From: Escherichia phage KS_W4
Strand: one strand, 5' to 3'
Length of the DNA stretch: 57,280 bases
Sequence record: PP627281.1
Part shown: positions 14,758 to 57,272 of the stretch, in pieces
Layout of the letters: each line of letters begins with the position of its first letter
Numbering within the stretch: the stretch's first letter is position 1
Notes under the pieces: model-generated
The model's database searches: none
The model's input: only the letters and a program-made list of their open reading frames with translations
What the model was told of the DNA's origin: nothing
Translations under genes and position numbers: made by a program

Positions 14758-15166
14758 GTTGCCAGGCTGGCAGACACGTTTATTAACCACAGTAAAGGAG
14801 TTGTCATCGACTCCTTTTTCTTGGGGTGAAAATGATTGCTGTACCTTTGCTGCTAAATGTGTTGATGCTCAATACGGTACAAATATCTACGAACAAGTCG
14901 CTGGAAAATATAGTACAGAGCTTGGAAGTAAAAAGTTCACTATTGAAAGAGTTGGAACCGCTTACCTTCCATTGTTATTGGATACTTACCTCAGCGAACG
15001 CGTTGACAAGAACTATGCGCAAAGAGGCGATGTGGTTACATTTGAGGGAGCATTGGGCTTAACTGCTGGCATATTATGGACTGGATATGTATGGGCTATG
15101 GGTCCGAACGGTGTGGAAACATTCCCGCTTAATAAGATCAAAATTACGGATATTTGGAGGGTCTAA
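14732..15166 (+). CDS. tail assembly protein (gpK-like, cysteine peptidase-type motif)
   Basis: GGGGGAG RBS before ATG at 14732; contains GENDCCTFAAKC motif; sits before the tip protein gene. Confidence 0.45.
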   Translation: MRQGSPMSKLPGWQTRLLTTVKELSSTPFSWGENDCCTFAAKCVDAQYGTNIYEQVAGKYSTELGSKKFTIERVGTAYLPLLLDTYLSERVDKNYAQRGDVVTFEGALGLTAGILWTGYVWAMGPNGVETFPLNKIKITDIWRV

Positions 15167-18100
15167 TGCCACCAGCAATAATTGGAGCAGCGATAGCTTT
15201 AGGTGCGTCGGCTGCTGCTGCGGCTAGTATTATTTCGGCTACTACCGCTCTCGTTATCGGTATTGCTGCAACCGCGGCAGGTGCTCTTTTGACTAAGACA
15301 CCAAATATGAACTTTGATGCTTACAAGGGGCAGCAAGAGCGTAAACAGGTTCTGCGTGCGGCTACAGCGTCACGTTCTGTTGTATATGGCACGACCGTAG
15401 CGTCCGGACTATTAGCATTTGCGGAGGAAGAAGCTGGAGATCAAGATGAAGGTGAATGGATGCATCTTGTTGTTGTTCTTGCTAGTCATAAATTGGAAGG
15501 TATTGAAACGATTTGGTTGGGTGATGACGGAATTGATTGGTTTGGTGAAAACGCTACTTGGGAGTTTCATAACGACCGTCAGACTGTTGACCCATTCATG
15601 TTAAGACATTGTCCTTCCTGGAAGGAGGATATGATTGGCAAGGGTATTGCATGGCTACGTTTAAGCTTAAAGTTTGATGCTGAAAAATTCCCATCTGGTT
15701 TGCCAAACGTCAAGGTGTTGAAAAAGGGACGTAGAGTCTATGACCCACGTTCCGGTCAAACTGTCTTTAGCGATAACGCTGCTCTTGTTATTCTTGATTA
15801 TTTCCGCACGTATTTAAAGCGCAAGGACGAGAATATTAACTGGGACCAATTCAAGGAAGCTGCTAACATCTGCGATGAGTTTGTTACTAACGCAGATAAC
15901 ACTACGGAAAGACGCTACCGCATTAACGGTGAGTTTGAAGTGGATGAAGCACCTGCCAAAATCCTTGATGCTATGCTTGAAGCTTGCGGTGGGGAACTAA
16001 CCTATATTGGCGGCAAGCATGGTCTGTTAGTTGGCGCTTATTATGGTCCTGCTACCATGACTTTGGACGAAAGCTGCATTGCTGGGGATATTAAAATTAT
16101 CCCTGAAACATCTTATAAAGAGCGCACCAATACCATTACAGGTACATTCGTTGACCCGAAGCAAACATACGCTGAAGCAGATTTTCCTCCAGTTGTGGTT
16201 AAGGAATGGGTGGAAAAAGATGGCGGCGAAATAACGCAGGACATGGATTTCCGCTTTGTTACAAGTGAATATCAAGCTCAACGTCTTGCTAATATTATTT
16301 TACGTCGTAAGCGTGTTGGTCGAACAATTGAAGTGCCGTGTAACATGAAGGGGTATAAATTCCGCCCGGGCATGTATGTCAACGTGACAATTTCAAATAT
16401 TGGAATGAAAAATGTTGAGATGCGCGTTACTAAATGGTCATTCGATCCTAAAGGTGGAATTAATCTTGTCCTTCGTCAAGACTTCCTGGAAATGTGGGAC
16501 GATGCTATTGGTAAACCAATGGAGCGTCCGGATCTGGTAGACCTTCCGTCTGGTGCTATTGCTCAACCGCAAAACCTTCAGTATCAGGTATTGCAGATCA
16601 GCGATGTTGTGCAAGGTGTTTTAACATGGAGCAATATTGGACAGGTAGCGTATAACCGCGTAGCCGTGCGACAGGGAGGTACAACGGTTTGGACTGCACA
16701 AGTCCCTGGCCAAAACGTTCGCGTTACTGGGTTGCTGCGTGGCGCGTATACAGCGCATGTTCAAGCGGTAGCTTATAGCGGGACAATATCACCGGAAGCG
16801 TATCTTGAATTTAATATTCAAGCGCCGCCTCCGCCAACGTCTATTGAAGTGCAACAGGGTTACTTTGCTATAAGTCTAATCCCTAAATCCGCAGATATTG
16901 CAAACGTTAGCACGCAGTATGATTTTTGGACCTCTGGTGAAACAAGATTGTCTTCCGTGTCTACGGATATTGTGGAACGCGAAGCAACTCGTAAAGGTAT
17001 GGGTACAACATGGACTTCAGAAGGTTTGAAGAATGACCACACTTATTACTGGTATGTTCGCACTATCAACGCTTTTGGATCGTCTGCATTTGTAGAGGTT
17101 GCTGCATTGTGCTTCACAACAGCTACAGACTTAATGCCACAGATTGATTCTGAGTTCAAGAAGACGGAGACTTATAAAGAGCTTACTGCTGAAATTACAG
17201 GTGTTAAAGACGGTGTTACCCAACTCAGCCAAACTGTAGTAGATACAGAAAAGCGTTTAAGCCAAAGTGTTAGCAACATTCAGCAGAGCGTTATTACTTT
17301 GGACGGTGTTGTTCAGGATCAAGGTGTTACTATCAATGAACAAGGACAACTTATTGATGCACAGGGCCGATTGATTGATACGCAAGGTAAAACTATTCAG
17401 CAAGTTAGCGCGACTGTACAGGAGACAAGTAAAGCAGTCGTAGATCTGGAAGGTAATGTTAACGCGCAATGGGGCGCTAAGGTACAGGTTGACAGTAAAG
17501 GGCAAAAATACGTCGCTGGTATCCAGTTAGGTATGGAAGGGTCCGGTGGAGCTGTCCAGTCTTACTTCATGGTGAGCGCTAACAACTTTGCTATCTATAA
17601 CCCGACAAACAGCGTAGCAGAACTGGCATTTGCTGTTAAGAACGGTCAAGTGTTCATGAAGGCTGCGTTTATTGAAAATGGTACTATCGACAGCGCCAAA
17701 ATTTCAAACCAGATTCAGTCAACTAACTACGCTAACAATAGCGCGGGTTGGATGATTAACAAGAACGGTAGCGCTCAGTTTAACAACGTAACGATAAGAG
17801 GTACTGTATACGCTAGCAACGGGTCTTTTACTGGTACAGTGAACGCAACAAGCGGTAAATTCAAGGGTACTGTGGAAGCCACCAGTTTTGTGGGTGATGT
17901 TGCGAATATGTGTGTCATTGCTGAGTCTGCAATACCAAACACACAAACTACAAGTTCAAGAACCTGGACAAAAACTTTCAAAGACTCATCCGGTTCAACA
18001 TTATCTAAAGACTTTGTGTTGTTATTAAGTTATAGTTTAACTGCATATACATCAAAGCAGTCAAGTCGTATAATTGTGACTGCTAACATAGGTGGAACAT

Positions 18101-18288
18101 CAATAACAAGGAGGATTGAGCGAGCTGCCAATGGACCTGCCATGGATGTAACCGTACCTTTAGCAGTGAAAGGAAAGACAGCGTCGAGCGTGACAATAAC
18201 CGTTAAGGAGGAGTATACGAACGTCTATGGGAGCTACTTGCGCCCGTCTGTAATATTAATGACTCGCGGAACTGGTAGTTGGTCGTAA
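15166..18288 (+). CDS. tail tip / host specificity protein (J-like)
   Basis: about 1040 aa; GGAGGG RBS and TAATG coupling; hydrophobic Ala-rich N-terminus, large beta-rich body; followed by terminator. Confidence 0.65.
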   Translation: MPPAIIGAAIALGASAAAAASIISATTALVIGIAATAAGALLTKTPNMNFDAYKGQQERKQVLRAATASRSVVYGTTVASGLLAFAEEEAGDQDEGEWMHLVVVLASHKLEGIETIWLGDDGIDWFGENATWEFHNDRQTVDPFMLRHCPSWKEDMIGKGIAWLRLSLKFDAEKFPSGLPNVKVLKKGRRVYDPRSGQTVFSDNAALVILDYFRTYLKRKDENINWDQFKEAANICDEFVTNADNTTERRYRINGEFEVDEAPAKILDAMLEACGGELTYIGGKHGLLVGAYYGPATMTLDESCIAGDIKIIPETSYKERTNTITGTFVDPKQTYAEADFPPVVVKEWVEKDGGEITQDMDFRFVTSEYQAQRLANIILRRKRVGRTIEVPCNMKGYKFRPGMYVNVTISNIGMKNVEMRVTKWSFDPKGGINLVLRQDFLEMWDDAIGKPMERPDLVDLPSGAIAQPQNLQYQVLQISDVVQGVLTWSNIGQVAYNRVAVRQGGTTVWTAQVPGQNVRVTGLLRGAYTAHVQAVAYSGTISPEAYLEFNIQAPPPPTSIEVQQGYFAISLIPKSADIANVSTQYDFWTSGETRLSSVSTDIVEREATRKGMGTTWTSEGLKNDHTYYWYVRTINAFGSSAFVEVAALCFTTATDLMPQIDSEFKKTETYKELTAEITGVKDGVTQLSQTVVDTEKRLSQSVSNIQQSVITLDGVVQDQGVTINEQGQLIDAQGRLIDTQGKTIQQVSATVQETSKAVVDLEGNVNAQWGAKVQVDSKGQKYVAGIQLGMEGSGGAVQSYFMVSANNFAIYNPTNSVAELAFAVKNGQVFMKAAFIENGTIDSAKISNQIQSTNYANNSAGWMINKNGSAQFNNVTIRGTVYASNGSFTGTVNATSGKFKGTVEATSFVGDVANMCVIAESAIPNTQTTSSRTWTKTFKDSSGSTLSKDFVLLLSYSLTAYTSKQSSRIIVTANIGGTSITRRIERAANGPAMDVTVPLAVKGKTASSVTITVKEEYTNVYGSYLRPSVILMTRGTGSWS

Positions 18289-18295
18289 TAAATAA

Positions 18296-18324
18296 TTAAC
18301 CCCTCAAACGAGGGGTTAATTTTC
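18296..18324. terminator. bidirectional rho-independent terminator
   Basis: TTAACCCCTC-AAAC-GAGGGGTTAA followed by TTTTC; lies between the + tip gene and the - lipoprotein gene. Confidence 0.7.
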
Positions 18325-18556
18325 AATAATCAATTACACAGTTTGAAGGTGAACCAATTCTTCGGTATTCATGATCAATCTCATGGCACCATTGTCCAGT
18401 CATTGGAAGCTTTTCGGTATCATAAATTAAAGAACCGTTACCATCACGGTCTAACGGTTTTGGAATAACGCCGGAATTAGGTTTACCCGTATTTAGACCG
18501 TTACCACATGCAGTGAGGGATAAAGTTAATGCCAGCATAATTAAAGCGCGTTTCAT
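18323..18556 (-). CDS. Cor-like lipoprotein (putative superinfection exclusion)
   Basis: 77-aa ORF with signal peptide and lipobox LTAC-G; opposite strand inside the tail module, as in T1/phi80-type cor genes. Confidence 0.5.
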   Translation of the reverse strand: MKRALIMLALTLSLTACGNGLNTGKPNSGVIPKPLDRDGNGSLIYDTEKLPMTGQWCHEIDHEYRRIGSPSNCVIDY

Positions 18557-18638
18557 TGGGACTCCTTTGTGTTGTTGTCAAGGTTCAATTCTAATATACT
18601 TGTTGTGTTGAGTAAGTCAAATAAATGTGGGAGATATT

Positions 18639-19799
18639 ATGGCAACTCGTTTACGTGGTACTTTAGTTGATGGTTTAAATAAACCAATTGTCAACGCTAC
18701 AGTTGCGCTTTTAGCAAAAGGGAATAGCTTATTGGTATTGTCCGGCAGTGAAGCTATCTTTAAAACAAGCGCAACCGGAACATATGATATTACAGTCCAA
18801 ACAGGCTATTACAAGGTTATTATCGGTCCGCAAGGTAGCGAGCCTTATAAAGCTGGTGAAATTGCTATTTACGCGGACAGTAAAGAAGGTACGCTGAATA
18901 ACTATTTAACTTCCTGGGCACCGGAAGAGTTAACTCCGGAAGTTATTGCACAGGTTAAAGATTTAGTTTCACAAGCTGAGACAGCTAAGAATGCTTCAGC
19001 TTCGTCAGCTACTAAATCCGAGCAGGAACGAGTTAAAGCAGAAGCTGCTGCTAAAAAGGCGGAAGATACTGCTAACGGTATGAAAGATTCTATTGGTCTA
19101 GCTAACAGACCTCGTCATATTGAAGATATCACTGGAAATCCTGCAAGCTTCCTTGGGTTTATACGCATTCTAAGAGCCACTACCGTAGGATATCCGTCTA
19201 TTGCCAGCGCAGATAACACTTTAGCTGGTTTTATTTCCCCAATGGATGGAACGCCAGGCTATATTGGTTTATTTGTTGGCGATGTGACTGGAACAGTTTA
19301 TAGTTACCGATGGGTACAAACGAAGGGTGCTTCATGGTGGAAAAGTGCTCTTTACAGTCAAATTGATAGATATATTCAGCTGGCTAGCGGTGAGACTCAG
19401 ATGAAGAGCGGTAATGCTAATTACCATCTATACATTAACGATCTGCAAGGATGGGGAGCCTATGATAATATTAATAAGCGGTTTATACCCCTGCCAGTTG
19501 CCAAAGGCGGTACAGGGGCGCTCACAGACGCGGATGCTCGTACAAACTTACGCCTCGGTGCTAATGATACACCGCAGTTCAGAAACCTTAATCTTGTTAA
19601 CGTAGCAGACACAGCTCAAGCCCCTTCCGGTATTGTGAGCGGTTATTTAAATAATAGTTCTGGAGTTCAAAGATGTCGCTACCGCATATATTCTGAGATA
19701 CGCGGAGATAACAAAGCGTGGTTAACCTTACACCTTCAATCAGACACAGCAACAAATAAATATGCTGGTTTAAGTGTGGATGGTAAATTTCATTGGTAA
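18639..19799 (+). CDS. tail fibre protein
   Basis: RBS GGGAGAT before ATG at 18639 (ORF track starts at GTG 18627); contains WGAYD...IPLP...GGTGA...TNL motif also found in the next ORF. Confidence 0.55.
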   Translation: MATRLRGTLVDGLNKPIVNATVALLAKGNSLLVLSGSEAIFKTSATGTYDITVQTGYYKVIIGPQGSEPYKAGEIAIYADSKEGTLNNYLTSWAPEELTPEVIAQVKDLVSQAETAKNASASSATKSEQERVKAEAAAKKAEDTANGMKDSIGLANRPRHIEDITGNPASFLGFIRILRATTVGYPSIASADNTLAGFISPMDGTPGYIGLFVGDVTGTVYSYRWVQTKGASWWKSALYSQIDRYIQLASGETQMKSGNANYHLYINDLQGWGAYDNINKRFIPLPVAKGGTGALTDADARTNLRLGANDTPQFRNLNLVNVADTAQAPSGIVSGYLNNSSGVQRCRYRIYSEIRGDNKAWLTLHLQSDTATNKYAGLSVDGKFHW

Positions 19800-21333
19800 C
19801 GCTATAAGTCTATCAGATGTACAAACGTCCAAAGTAAACCTACAGGTAAATAGATTCCTGCAAGCTACAGGCGAAACTGATGTGGTTAACCATGCAGGGA
19901 CAGCTCAAATTTTTATCACTGATAATAAAAATTGGGGGGCTTACGATAAAGAATTAAAGCGTCATATCCCTTTGCCCATTTCACAGGGTGGGACTGGAGC
20001 GGTTACTATTGGTGACGCTAAGACAAATTTACAAATACCTTCTGTTGGTGCTGGAGACTGGTTGGAGATTGCTGCTCCTTCTGGCGTTGAAGCGGGGAAA
20101 TATTATCCAATTGTAATCAAAGCTCAATATGCCTCTTTATATGCTTCTGGTTTCTTTATAGATATACAAACTAGAAGCTCTAGAGGTTCAGATCCTATGA
20201 ACTGTTGTACATTTAACGGATTCATACGAACAGGTGGTTGGTCGGATAGGAAAGACGCTGGCTATGGATACTATAACCGATATGGTTCTAATGAGCTTGC
20301 TTTAAAATGCATATTGGTATCCGCTAAGAATGCTGAAGACAATATAGCTGTATATGTAGAAGGTAGAGCATTCCCAGTGAAAATGCGCATACCTCAATTT
20401 TGCACAGCTACGGCAGTCGCTTCAGCTTCTACATATGGTGAAGTGACATTTGCTTGGGGTACATCCAATCCTGCTACAGATTCAGTTGGGGTAAATACCC
20501 TATTTGATTTCTCTTTAAATAGAGTTGGTTTTTATCAAGCATCTACTGAAGGAAACTATTATATTGGTAACGGCCAACGTATAGTTCTTTCTAATGGGAT
20601 GTCCGTAGGGGATGAATTAACCTTAACCACACCTAAGATTACTTTCAGTGGCACAGTAGCAGCGGGTAACGGTTTTATTGCGGATGGGACGTCTGTATCC
20701 AATGCTACTTTTTATAGTCGTTATCGTGTCGGTGATACTGTTTACGGTGCGGAGTTCCGGGCTAGTGAGAATGCAGCCCAAGTTATTGTCGGAGACCCAG
20801 CAGGAACTAATCATCAATTCTTCAACTTTAATCTTAATGGTACATTTAGCGCGCCAAACGGTTTATTAAGCTCCACTGGTGTTGATTGGACGTTACGTCG
20901 GGACGCTACCGATTCAACTACCATGTTCCCACACCAGAAGGTTAGCTGGCTTAATGCTGGCTGTGAACCTATGGGCGATGGAAGGGTTCATTACTGTTGG
21001 ATTATGGGAGTGATACCGCCTACGCCTGGCACTATCGAACGACCCGTGAATGTGATGTATGTCGGCTTCCACCAGTTTAAAATCACGATCGCTCCAAACT
21101 CCATTAGTCAGTCTGATCTTGATCGTATGCACGTTTACGTCAGCGATGGTACAGACTTTGCAGGTGATTTTATTAATAAGTTTCTTGGTATGCAACCTGA
21201 GCAACCTGTAGAAGCTCGCGAGCACATTAGCCCGTGGCCGCCAATGATTGATCAGGAAGTGTTACAGCCAAAGACCGCTCAAACGGCCCCTCAGAAACCG
21301 GAGCAGAAGGTGAAACCAAATGACGAAGAATGA
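19780..21333 (+). CDS. tail fibre protein 2 / receptor-binding candidate
   Basis: about 517 aa; starts (GTG 19774 or ATG 19780) in a different frame overlapping the upstream fibre stop; N-terminus repeats the WGAYD...GGTGA...TNL motif. Confidence 0.5.
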   Translation: MVNFIGNAISLSDVQTSKVNLQVNRFLQATGETDVVNHAGTAQIFITDNKNWGAYDKELKRHIPLPISQGGTGAVTIGDAKTNLQIPSVGAGDWLEIAAPSGVEAGKYYPIVIKAQYASLYASGFFIDIQTRSSRGSDPMNCCTFNGFIRTGGWSDRKDAGYGYYNRYGSNELALKCILVSAKNAEDNIAVYVEGRAFPVKMRIPQFCTATAVASASTYGEVTFAWGTSNPATDSVGVNTLFDFSLNRVGFYQASTEGNYYIGNGQRIVLSNGMSVGDELTLTTPKITFSGTVAAGNGFIADGTSVSNATFYSRYRVGDTVYGAEFRASENAAQVIVGDPAGTNHQFFNFNLNGTFSAPNGLLSSTGVDWTLRRDATDSTTMFPHQKVSWLNAGCEPMGDGRVHYCWIMGVIPPTPGTIERPVNVMYVGFHQFKITIAPNSISQSDLDRMHVYVSDGTDFAGDFINKFLGMQPEQPVEAREHISPWPPMIDQEVLQPKTAQTAPQKPEQKVKPNDEE

Positions 21334-22797: not shown

Positions 22798-23091
22798 CTA
22801 GCCCCCAAAAGTACCCCTATGATCAAGGGTTCTAATGCGCTGCTCCAGCCAACGTGCGTTCTTTTCAAAATGTTTATTGGTACGAGCTGCTTTGCACGCA
22901 TCAATAATACCTAACTCACATCCAAGCTGCGTTTGTCCCATCACGTAAGAATGAGTTAACATGCTGGATACAAGGTCTTCACATTGTAACTTAATAGGAT
23001 GGTCTTGGCATAGTTTCTTTGCTGCATCTTTTAAATCCACAGCTTGGACACCAGGCGCTATCAGCAAAGTTACGAGTAATAAACGTTTCAT
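22798..23091 (-). CDS. hypothetical secreted/periplasmic protein
   Basis: 97-aa ORF with N-terminal signal peptide (MKRLLLVTLLIAPGVQA) and several Cys. Confidence 0.45.
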   Translation of the reverse strand: MKRLLLVTLLIAPGVQAVDLKDAAKKLCQDHPIKLQCEDLVSSMLTHSYVMGQTQLGCELGIIDACKAARTNKHFEKNARWLEQRIRTLDHRGTFGG

Positions 23092-56271: not shown

Positions 56272-56307
56272 CTGATGGGGCGTCAGCCCCTTTTTATTGG
56301 AGGGAAC

Positions 56308-56652
56308 ATGTTCAACTCATCAAACGAACATTGGGCAGTTCTAGCGGGGTTTGCTCTGATTTCCCTCATTGGGGGAGCTCTCGGTTACGTCATGCGTACA
56401 ATTGACGCTGGTAAGAAGGTACGGATAAGCATTGCATGTCTTGAAGGTTTATCCGCCGCGTTCTTCGGCGTTATAATGTACGCGATCTACAGGGAGTTTA
56501 ATATCAGCCTTTGGTTCGCTTTTGGCCTTGCTGGCCTATTCGCTTGGGCGGGTTCACGTGCTACGCTAAAAGCTCTAAAGTCGCTTCTAGCATCGCGGAC
56601 AGGGATCAAACTCGACTCAGAGGACTGCAAACATGAAAATGATTCTAAATAA
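56308..56652 (+). CDS. holin (class I-like, 3 TM)
   Basis: about 114 aa from ATG 56308 (GGAGGGA RBS); three hydrophobic segments and a charged C-terminus; directly precedes the spanins. Confidence 0.5.
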   Translation: MFNSSNEHWAVLAGFALISLIGGALGYVMRTIDAGKKVRISIACLEGLSAAFFGVIMYAIYREFNISLWFAFGLAGLFAWAGSRATLKALKSLLASRTGIKLDSEDCKHENDSK

Positions 56653-57109
56653 CTTCTTCAGCTTCATAAAAGCTAAGCCCCGTCTGTTTATCGAGTACCT
56701 GATGATCGGCGCGGTGGTGTTTTTATGCGGAGTGGCCGCTTACCTGTGGTCACAAAACGAGCTTAACAAATCAAATTTAAGCTTGGCTGAAGAACGTTTA
56801 ACCGTTGTGGAGAAGGACAATGCTAAGCTGAGCGAAGCTGTTGTATTTCTTGCTGCACAAAGGGAGAAAGATACGGACTCTTTCAAGAAACTAACTTCTG
56901 CAATTCAGGACGAACAACATAACCACAAGTTGCTTCAGGACAAGTTGCAGACACTGGAGAAAAGCAATGCTGACGTCAAAGCTTATCTTAACGAGCGTAT
57001 TCCTGATGATTTGCGCAGGTTGCTCGACGCAGACTCAACCTCCCCCAGCTCCACAGATAGTGAAGGTAAGACTACCCGCGCATCTACTGGTGGAATGTCG
57101 GGAAGTTGA
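56633..57109 (+). CDS. i-spanin (Rz-like)
   Basis: 158 aa; N-terminal TM helix followed by a coiled-coil periplasmic domain; overlaps the holin end and the o-spanin. Confidence 0.6.
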   Translation: MKMILNNFFSFIKAKPRLFIEYLMIGAVVFLCGVAAYLWSQNELNKSNLSLAEERLTVVEKDNAKLSEAVVFLAAQREKDTDSFKKLTSAIQDEQHNHKLLQDKLQTLEKSNADVKAYLNERIPDDLRRLLDADSTSPSSTDSEGKTTRASTGGMSGS

Positions 57110-57272
57110 GAAAATTCCTTTGGTTTACACAAGAGATATTATCCGACGTTTACAGGATACAGAAACTGCTCTGACTGAATGTAAGCTAAGGGTTAAGGAA
57201 ATCATACGCTATGAAGCTGAAAATGTTTCGCTTGATTTTGTAGGATCAAGCAATTATATTCAGCCTAAATAG
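56967..57272 (+). CDS. o-spanin (Rz1-like lipoprotein)
   Basis: 101 aa; signal peptide with lipobox ICAGC; Pro-rich segment TQTQPPPAPQ; starts inside the i-spanin gene in another frame and extends past it (overlapped architecture). Confidence 0.6.
   Translation: MLTSKLILTSVFLMICAGCSTQTQPPPAPQIVKVRLPAHLLVECREVEKIPLVYTRDIIRRLQDTETALTECKLRVKEIIRYEAENVSLDFVGSSNYIQPK

What the first reader, a model, noticed from the sequence alone, without database searches (positions are those of the whole stretch)
18296..18556. Cor-like lipoprotein gene embedded antisense in the tail module
A 77-aa lipoprotein (lipobox LTAC) is encoded on the opposite strand directly after the tail tip gene, sharing a bidirectional terminator. 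In T1/phi80-type phages a cor lipoprotein at this position blocks the outer-membrane receptor to exclude superinfection. This implies a specific receptor and an exclusion phenotype.
Basis: partly seen in the sequence, partly recalled or inferred. Interest (0 to 1): 0.4.

Follow-up and report, generated by a model that had tools for sequence, protein, structure and literature searches.

The report
LamB-type phage exclusion lipoprotein, not Cor
The small antisense gene after the tail-tip gene is a real, conserved lipoprotein gene of a Seurat-like E. coli phage; it is unrelated in sequence to Cor, but a 55%-identical relative has been shown to exclude phages that use the LamB porin, so it is an ordinary member of a recently described exclusion-protein family.

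Summary
Window 18323-18556 (-) encodes a 77-aa prelipoprotein (lipobox LTAC, Cys17). It has its own Shine-Dalgarno sequence and a sigma-70-like promoter. It converges on the J tail-tip gene across a strong shared hairpin (18294-18321). The gene is under strong purifying selection (dN/dS 0.06-0.09). It keeps this position in at least five phage lineages.

The "Cor-like" label is right only as a functional and positional analogy. Models that recognise T1 Cor and T5 Llp (NCBIfam NF047972, PHROG 1119) do not recognise this protein. Profile comparison aligns only the signal peptide. The protein belongs to PHROG 12984, a very small family.

That family includes mEp010 gp116 (Lpp010, 55% identical). 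Expressed from a plasmid, Lpp010 excludes the LamB-dependent phages mEp010, mEp044, mEp554 and lambda (PMC11893012). The window's J C-terminal domain is 95-97% identical to that of three BASEL Seuratvirus phages shown to need LamB. The one BASEL Seuratvirus that uses LptD lacks both that domain and the lipoprotein.

The best reading is an outer-membrane lipoprotein that inactivates LamB. How it does so is unknown, and structure predictions are low-confidence. This is a new member of a known kind, of modest interest.

The parts
18323..18556 (-). 77-aa prelipoprotein gene (PHROG 12984; same family as mEp010 gp116/Lpp010)
   Evidence: ORF listing. PHROG 12984 at E=2.4e-55 over the full length. 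55% identity to Lpp010, E=4e-32. dN/dS 0.06-0.09.
18506..18556 (-). Signal peptide (residues 1-16) plus the lipobox cysteine. Lipobox LTAC is at 18517..18506, Cys17 at 18508..18506, and the +2 residue is Gly (no Asp inner-membrane retention signal).
   Evidence: Read from the sequence. C17 is invariant in the 30-sequence alignment, and +2 is G/A/S/T throughout. Outer-membrane sorting is inferred from the established +2 rule; it was not tested.
18338..18388 (-). C-terminal conserved core between Cys57 and Cys73 (WC...RRIGSPSNC). Both cysteines are nearly invariant, so a disulfide is likely.
   Evidence: Alignment A1: C57 and C73 are at least 90% conserved. Invariant motifs are PNSGV and TE..G. 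The disulfide is an inference.
18562..18567 (-). Shine-Dalgarno AAGGAG, 5 nt before the ATG
   Evidence: Sequence. Annotated as an RBS in the Seurat record.
18593..18620 (-). Sigma-70-like promoter candidate TTGACT-16 nt-TATATT, belonging to the lipoprotein gene alone
   Evidence: Consensus scan, 10 of 12 matches. It is identical in the two Seuratvirus relatives compared; 9g differs in the -35 hexamer. AS5 and EP23 also have promoter-like hexamers upstream of their copies. Function was not tested.
18294..18321 (.). Hairpin terminator shared by the convergent J and lipoprotein genes
   Evidence: A GC-rich hairpin lies directly after the stop codon in every lineage examined.
15154..18288 (+). 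J-like tail-tip protein (1044 aa)
   Evidence: Pfam and PHROG hits.
17821..18285 (+). C-terminal ~155-aa domain of J, the presumed LamB-binding domain that travels with the lipoprotein gene
   Evidence: 95-97% identical to the same domain in the LamB-dependent phages GottfriedDienst, WildeMaa and SeppeHuegi. It is homologous in every J gene next to a lipoprotein homologue. It is absent from the J proteins of VogelGryff (LptD), T1 and lambda.

Best explanation
The gene encodes a small outer-membrane lipoprotein that makes the infected cell, and the debris it leaves after lysis, refractory to phages that use the maltoporin LamB.

Proposed sequence of events:
1. The gene is a self-contained unit with its own sigma-70-like promoter, Shine-Dalgarno sequence and terminator. 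It can therefore be read by host RNA polymerase independently of the late tail operon it sits in (inferred).
2. The precursor is exported, lipidated at Cys17, and sorted to the outer membrane because residue +2 is Gly (inferred from the +2 rule).
3. The roughly 60-residue mature part has a Gly/Pro-rich tether carrying the invariant PNSGV(I)P motif. It also has a short core with two cysteines. It acts on LamB so that tail-tip proteins can no longer use LamB productively.

What is shown: a 55%-identical homologue, expressed alone, blocks plating of four LamB-dependent phages, including lambda, whose J tip is unrelated.

What is inferred: that the window's protein does the same, that it contacts LamB directly, and at which step it acts (adsorption or DNA entry).

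The gene forms a two-part mobile module with the receptor-binding C-terminal domain of J, and this module has moved between unrelated phage groups. In a virulent phage such as this one, the likely benefit is the one proposed for T5 Llp and T1 Cor: sparing progeny from wasted adsorption to infected cells and lysis debris.
For: (1) Real gene: dN/dS 0.058-0.093, SD, promoter and terminator, and 43 phage records with homologues.

(2) Family: the window protein and mEp010 gp116 both match PHROG 12984, at 55% identity and E=4e-32. The tblastn match falls on locus tag mEp010_116.

(3) Function of the homologue: plasmid-expressed Lpp010 excluded mEp010, mEp044, mEp554 and lambda. mEp010, mEp013, mEp044 and mEp554 all require LamB (PMC11893012).

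(4) Receptor of this phage type: the BASEL Seuratvirus phages Bas21-24 need LamB, whereas Bas25 VogelGryff needs LptD (PMC8594841 S5 table). Bas21-24 all carry the lipoprotein at 87-100% identity. VogelGryff instead has a shorter J and an unrelated 321-aa antisense gene.

(5) Linkage:
- In every locus inspected, the homologue lies convergent and roughly 25-35 bp after J. These loci are Seuratvirus, Nonagvirus 9g, Dhillonvirus EP23, the Drexlerviridae phage AS5, the temperate mEpimmI phages, a Salmonella prophage-like contig and metagenomic contigs.
- All of these J proteins share one C-terminal domain family, which lambda, T1 and VogelGryff lack.
- 32 of the 33 phage records with a full-length match to the window's J C-terminal domain also carry the lipoprotein.

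(6) Lambda's J tip is unrelated to these tips yet lambda is excluded. This points to the shared receptor as the target rather than to a particular tail protein.
Against: - The window's protein has not been tested. Identity to the tested homologue is only 55%.
- The mEp study used spot assays only. Neither an adsorption block nor a LamB interaction has been demonstrated.
- mEp013 needs LamB, and its own lipoprotein has the same mature sequence as Lpp010 (they differ only at residue 2, in the signal peptide). It nevertheless escapes Lpp010. LamB is therefore not simply removed or fully masked.
- HK97 adsorbs to LamB and has a J tip 92% identical to that of 9g, but it has no copy or remnant of the gene. 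The pairing is therefore not obligatory.
- AlphaFold models are low-confidence (pLDDT 61.7 and 56.2), so no structural mechanism can be read off.
- LamB has no plug domain, so the only mechanism solved for this kind of protein (Llp acting through the FhuA plug, PMC9586334) cannot apply as such.
Confidence: 0.72

Rival explanations
1. It is a true Cor/Llp-family protein that blocks FhuA, as in T1, phi80 and T5.
For: Same size (77 aa against 75 for T1 Cor and 77 for T5 Llp). Same lipobox type. Same antisense position after the tail-tip region with a shared terminator. Two cysteines in the mature part.
Against: - NCBIfam NF047972 'phage exclusion lipoprotein Cor' scores T1 Cor at 55.8 bits (cut-off 31) and gives no hit for the window protein at E<=1.
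- PHROG 1119 takes T1 Cor (3e-30) and T5 Llp (1e-19) but not this protein.
- BLASTP and hhalign align only the 19-20 signal-peptide residues. The control comparison, Cor profile against Llp, aligns 50 columns at 94% probability.
- Relatives with near-identical loci depend on LamB, not FhuA.
Confidence: 0.03
2. It excludes superinfecting phages at a later step, by blocking DNA passage through the periplasm or inner membrane (as with TP-J34 Ltp or HK97 gp15), not by acting on LamB.
For: Only plating was measured for the homologue, so the blocked step is unknown. The escape of mEp013 despite its LamB dependence would fit a target on the phage side.
Against: - The gene is linked to the receptor-binding end of J, not to the tape-measure gene.
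- The excluded phages include lambda, whose tail tip is unrelated. LamB is the one infection requirement documented here as common to lambda and the excluded mEp phages.
- The absence of Asp at +2 predicts the outer membrane rather than the inner membrane (inference).
Confidence: 0.15
3. It is the outer-membrane spanin (Rz1-like lysis lipoprotein) or another lysis accessory.
For: It is a small outer-membrane lipoprotein. There is a weak PHROG hit to an Rz-like spanin family (E=0.0058), confined to residues 1-32, i.e. the signal peptide and the start of the mature tether.
Against: The window has a complete lysis cassette 38 kb away: endolysin ORF, holin at 56275-56652 (PHROG 785), i-spanin at 56633-57109 (PHROG 89), and an overlapping o-spanin lipoprotein at 56967-57272 (PHROG 456). 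The 77-aa gene is always next to J, never next to lysis genes.
Confidence: 0.02
4. It is a host-benefit moron of some other kind (for example serum resistance like Bor, or envelope modification) with no role in phage exclusion.
For: It has the autonomous promoter-gene-terminator layout typical of morons. It is also found in temperate phages and prophage-like contigs.
Against: It is kept under strong purifying selection in strictly virulent Seuratvirus, Nonagvirus, Dhillonvirus and Drexlerviridae phages, where a lysogen-benefit gene has no obvious use. The homologue has a demonstrated exclusion phenotype.
Confidence: 0.06

Closest known systems
Lpp010 (gp116, 'type-C lipoprotein') of temperate coliphage mEp010, mEpimmI group (PMC11893012, 2025)
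   Same: Same protein family: PHROG 12984, 55% identity over the whole mature part, with the same invariant motifs and the same two cysteines. Same position, convergent on J with a shared terminator. The J C-terminal domain belongs to the same family. The phages are LamB-dependent.
   Different: mEp010 is temperate and unrelated in the rest of its genome. The tether region differs (CAVDKEAALHNL against CGNGLNTGK). Only Lpp010 has been tested experimentally.
T5 Llp (PDB 8A60, 7QJF) and T1/phi80/N15 Cor (PHROG 1119, NCBIfam NF047972)
   Same: Small (about 60-residue mature) outer-membrane lipoproteins of siphoviruses, encoded next to the receptor-binding genes. T1 cor is antisense with a shared terminator. 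They inactivate the phage's own porin receptor. The proposed benefit is superinfection exclusion and protection of progeny from lysis debris.
   Different: No detectable sequence relationship beyond the signal peptide. The target is FhuA, a plugged TonB-dependent transporter. Llp works from the periplasm through the plug, and LamB has no plug. Llp has a solved, folded structure, whereas this family is predicted with low confidence and mostly as coil.
[quoted passage not shown]
   Same: The window's locus is the LamB allele of this system. It is a swappable unit after or at the end of J that sets the terminal receptor, and it carries a cognate exclusion factor.
   Different: In the FhuA, BtuB, YncD and LptD alleles, separate receptor-binding proteins follow J. 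Here the binding domain is the C-terminal extension of J itself, and the only extra gene is the lipoprotein.

Membership tests
Cor exclusion lipoprotein (NCBIfam NF047972; PHROG 1119, which also holds T5 Llp) | Match to the curated family model above its cut-off | tested here: not met
   There is no hit at E<=1 in NCBIfam and no PHROG 1119 hit. Positive controls: T1 Cor 55.8 bits; T1 Cor 3.3e-30 and T5 Llp 1.1e-19 in PHROG 1119.
Cor exclusion lipoprotein (NCBIfam NF047972; PHROG 1119, which also holds T5 Llp) | Homology of the mature domain (conserved C..A.Y...Y.V.VF...GYPF...C core) | tested here: not met
   hhalign of the 30-sequence family profile against the Cor profile and against Llp aligns 20 columns, all of them signal peptide. 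The control, Cor against Llp, aligns 50 columns at 94% probability.
Cor exclusion lipoprotein (NCBIfam NF047972; PHROG 1119, which also holds T5 Llp) | Llp-like fold | tested here: inconclusive
   AF2 models have pLDDT 61.7 and 56.2. Foldseek against the PDB gives no hit with E<1 and no Llp hit, but the model is too poor to exclude fold similarity.
Cor exclusion lipoprotein (NCBIfam NF047972; PHROG 1119, which also holds T5 Llp) | Excludes FhuA-dependent phages | not testable with these tools
   Indirect evidence only: relatives carrying this locus depend on LamB.
Lpp010 / type-C lipoprotein family (PHROG 12984) | Full-length sequence match to the family | tested here: met
   PHROG 12984 at E=2.4e-55, residues 1-77 against profile positions 1-77. 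Lpp010 matches the same PHROG at 1e-26. Pairwise identity is 55%, E=4e-32.
Lpp010 / type-C lipoprotein family (PHROG 12984) | Lipobox with cysteine and no Asp at +2 | tested here: met
   LTAC followed by G. C17 is invariant across the family.
Lpp010 / type-C lipoprotein family (PHROG 12984) | Encoded convergent on J, whose C-terminal domain is of the LamB-associated type | tested here: met
   The window's J tip is 95-97% identical to the tips of the LamB-dependent phages Bas21, Bas23 and Bas24.
Lpp010 / type-C lipoprotein family (PHROG 12984) | Excludes LamB-dependent phages when expressed alone | not testable with these tools
   Shown only for Lpp010.
Rz1-type outer-membrane spanin | Located in the lysis cassette, paired or overlapping with an i-spanin gene | tested here: not met
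   The spanin pair is at 56633-57272, next to the holin and endolysin. The 77-aa gene lies between J and the lateral tail-fibre gene.

The most novel reading that the evidence does not exclude
This family may inactivate a plugless trimeric porin (LamB) by a mechanism with no solved precedent. One possibility is that a largely unstructured, tethered peptide enters or reshapes the channel from the periplasmic side. Another is that the lipoprotein is surface-exposed. Either would have to block tail tips as unrelated as those of lambda J and the mEp/Seurat-type J, while a close variant (mEp013) escapes. If so, it would be a second, structurally independent solution to receptor jamming, alongside Llp-FhuA.
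Probability: 0.35. Interest if true: 0.6.

Novelty: new member of a known kind. Interest (0 to 1): 0.3.

Why it matters
- It corrects a tempting mis-annotation. 'Cor-like' would wrongly imply FhuA.
- It lets the receptor of this phage be predicted as LamB from sequence.
- It shows that the J-tip plus lipoprotein pair is a portable receptor-and-exclusion module shared by virulent and temperate coliphages. This is relevant when designing phage cocktails, because co-infecting LamB phages could be excluded, and when engineering host range.
- The mechanism on LamB is open and would be worth a structure.
- The gene, its lipoprotein nature and its moron layout were already annotated. The exclusion function was published for a homologue in 2025.

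Tried and rejected
- Cor/Llp homology: rejected.
- PDB sequence search with the protein: no match.
- PADLOC defence models: no match.
- Pfam: only a sub-threshold lipobox-type hit, LptM_cons at 15 bits against a cut-off of 27.3.
- Exhaustive profile search of 1.84 billion representatives: only three genuine representatives, plus two repetitive adhesin-like proteins (CshA/SdrD repeats, MORN-like). I regard these two as compositional noise.
- Two AlphaFold runs, on the full precursor and on the mature part: both low-confidence. The Foldseek result is therefore uninformative.
- Spanin hypothesis: rejected.
- Search for a remnant of the gene in HK97: none found.
- Perfect one-to-one linkage between the J-tip domain family and the lipoprotein: rejected. 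HK97, PD328, BHUENT2/9 and the Tlsvirus GS71 have related tips without it.

Full report
**What is there.** The window is a Seuratvirus-type (Queuovirinae) E. coli phage genome. Region 17000-20000 matches RCIP0359, slur01, Seurat, CAjan and the BASEL phages SeppeHuegi, WildeMaa and GottfriedDienst at 89-95% nucleotide identity.

The minus-strand ORF 18323..18556 encodes 77 aa: MKRALIMLALTLSLTACGNGLNTGKPNSGVIPKPLDRDGNGSLIYDTEKLPMTGQWCHEIDHEYRRIGSPSNCVIDY. Its lipobox LTAC places the lipidated Cys at residue 17.

The ORF lies between the J-like tail-tip gene (15154..18288, +) and the lateral tail-fibre gene (18627.., +). A 12-bp-stem hairpin at 18294-18321 separates the two convergent stop codons. 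The hairpin is far more stable than shuffled sequence on both strands. AAGGAG lies 5 nt before the ATG, and a TTGACT-16-TATATT site lies 40-60 nt upstream. The GenBank record of phage Seurat already calls this a 'putative lipoprotein' and an 'apparent moron' with a bidirectional terminator.

**Is it a real gene?** Yes. Pairwise dN/dS is 0.058 (window vs Seurat), 0.076 (vs 9g) and 0.093 (mEp010 vs MagusPhagus). tblastn finds it in 43 phage records. The word-indexed search finds 29 clusters, all unnamed. Invariant motifs are PNSGV, TE and G54. DTEKLPxTGQWC and RRIGSPSNC are nearly invariant, including two mature cysteines.

The family is very small. An exhaustive profile search of 1.84 billion representatives returned three genuine representatives plus two repetitive proteins that I treat as noise.

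**Is it Cor?** No.
- T1 cor was fetched as a control. It too lies antisense after the tail-tip/RBP genes and overlaps a terminator, so the positional analogy is valid.
- BLASTP between the two proteins aligns only residues 1-19.
- NCBIfam's Cor model scores T1 Cor at 55.8 bits and gives no hit for the window protein or its mEp010 homologue.
- PHROG 1119 ('Cor superinfection exclusion protein') takes both T1 Cor and T5 Llp. The window protein and mEp010 gp116 go to PHROG 12984 instead.
- Profile-profile comparison of the family against the Cor family or against Llp aligns 20 signal-peptide columns. The Cor-against-Llp control aligns 50 columns at 94% probability. The Llp sequence used was verified against PDB 8A60.
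- Structure prediction gave pLDDT 61.7 for the precursor and 56.2 for the mature part, mostly coil. Foldseek found nothing. Fold-level similarity is therefore undecided, not excluded.

**What it does.** The decisive lead is in the literature. In the temperate mEpimmI coliphages, the 'type-C lipoprotein' Lpp010 (mEp010 gp116), expressed from a plasmid, excluded mEp010, mEp044, mEp554 and lambda. mEp010, mEp013, mEp044 and mEp554 all require LamB (PMC11893012). The tblastn match in mEp010 falls exactly on locus tag mEp010_116. That protein is 55% identical to the window protein over the whole mature part.

Independently, the BASEL S5 table lists LamB as the terminal receptor of the Seuratvirus phages Bas21-24 and LptD for Bas25 VogelGryff (PMC8594841). 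Bas21-24 all carry the lipoprotein at 87-100% identity. VogelGryff has a J that is about 165 aa shorter, followed by an unrelated 321-aa antisense gene. So eight of eight experimentally typed phages with this lipoprotein are LamB-dependent.

**Linkage to the tail tip.** In every locus inspected the homologue lies convergent on J, about 25-35 bp from its stop codon. The loci are:
- Seuratvirus;
- Nonagvirus 9g;
- Dhillonvirus EP23;
- the Drexlerviridae phage AS5;
- the mEpimmI phages and MagusPhagus;
- a Salmonella contig;
- Dhillonvirus-like metagenomic contigs.

All these J proteins share a C-terminal domain of about 130-155 aa, running from GTVEATSF(V/I)GDVANM to (T/S)(R/H)G(T/S)GS(W/F). Lambda J, T1 J and VogelGryff J lack it. 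Of the 33 phage records with a full-length match to the window's version of this domain, 32 also have the lipoprotein.

The link is not obligatory. HK97 adsorbs to LamB (PMC6832061) and has a tip 92% identical to that of 9g, but it has no copy or remnant of the gene. The more distant tips of PD328 and the Tlsvirus GS71 are followed by different small secreted proteins.

**Mechanism.** What is shown: a family member alone is sufficient to exclude LamB-dependent phages with unrelated tail tips. This points to the receptor as the target.

What is inferred:
- outer-membrane location, because residue +2 is Gly and no family member has Asp there;
- a disulfide between C57 and C73;
- transcription from its own sigma-70-type promoter;
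- direct action on LamB.

What is open: how it acts. The only solved precedent is Llp, which binds a non-native conformation of the FhuA plug from the periplasm and folds extracellular loops inward (PMC9586334). LamB has no plug. Escape by mEp013 shows that LamB is altered rather than removed.

For a virulent phage the likely benefit is the one proposed for Cor and Llp: avoiding loss of progeny on infected cells and debris (PMC11990801).

**Rivals.**
- An o-spanin role is excluded, because the window has its own holin, i-spanin and o-spanin at 56275-57272.
- A post-adsorption block of DNA entry cannot be excluded, because only plating was measured for the homologue.
- A lysogen-benefit moron is unlikely, given strong conservation in virulent phages.

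**Verdict.** It is wrong in family (not Cor) and in the implied receptor (LamB, not FhuA). This is a new, untested member of a recently characterised family, and interest is modest.

Noticed in passing
window 18627-19799 and 19774-21333 (+): The lateral tail-fibre gene appears split into two overlapping ORFs in different frames (390 aa and 519 aa). They match consecutive parts of one PHROG profile: PHROG 6578 positions 205-486, then 490-827. SeppeHuegi has a single 1026-aa gene here. The split could be a frameshift, a sequencing error or a genuine split.
   Followed up: no
L013 3049-3357 (-) (Nonagvirus PD328) and L014 3010-3279 (-) (Tlsvirus vB_GS71, unannotated): Phages whose J tip belongs to the same domain family but which lack the lipoprotein carry a different small secreted protein, antisense right after J. 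Each has a signal peptide ending in AYA. PD328's protein has a Gly-rich linker, and each has two cysteines in its C-terminal half (near the end in PD328). These are candidate exclusion factors for other receptors. TolC is expected for Tlsvirus according to the BASEL paper.
   Followed up: partly
L012 2969-3175 (HK97, between J and stf): HK97 has a J C-terminal domain 92% identical to that of phage 9g and adsorbs to LamB. The 207-bp gap after J holds no lipoprotein gene or remnant. HK97 relies on a different exclusion protein, gp15, according to a reference cited in PMC6832061.
   Followed up: partly
L007 3828-4793 (-) (VogelGryff, LptD-dependent Seuratvirus): At the position of the lipoprotein gene this phage has a 321-aa antisense gene after a J that is about 165 aa shorter. 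This is presumably the separate LptD-binding protein of the BASEL 'RBP locus'.
   Followed up: no
window 56275-57272 (+): Lysis cassette: holin (PHROG 785), i-spanin (PHROG 89), and an o-spanin lipoprotein overlapping the i-spanin gene out of frame (lipobox CAGC, Pro-rich; PHROG 456). The spanins are not annotated as such in the Seurat GenBank record.
   Followed up: partly
window 22798-23091 (-): A 97-aa ORF with a classical cleavable signal peptide (MKRLLLVTLLIAPGVQA) and several cysteines. This is another small secreted protein of unknown role, in the leftward-transcribed (minus-strand) gene block just downstream of the tail-fibre genes.
   Followed up: no
L004/L005 (mEp013, mEp010), literature: mEp013 is LamB-dependent, and its lipoprotein differs from Lpp010 only at residue 2, in the signal peptide. 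It still escapes Lpp010 exclusion (PMC11893012). Its J is 1504 aa against 1707 aa for mEp010, and the last 160 aa are 63% identical. This is a natural escape variant that could be used to map the interaction.
   Followed up: no
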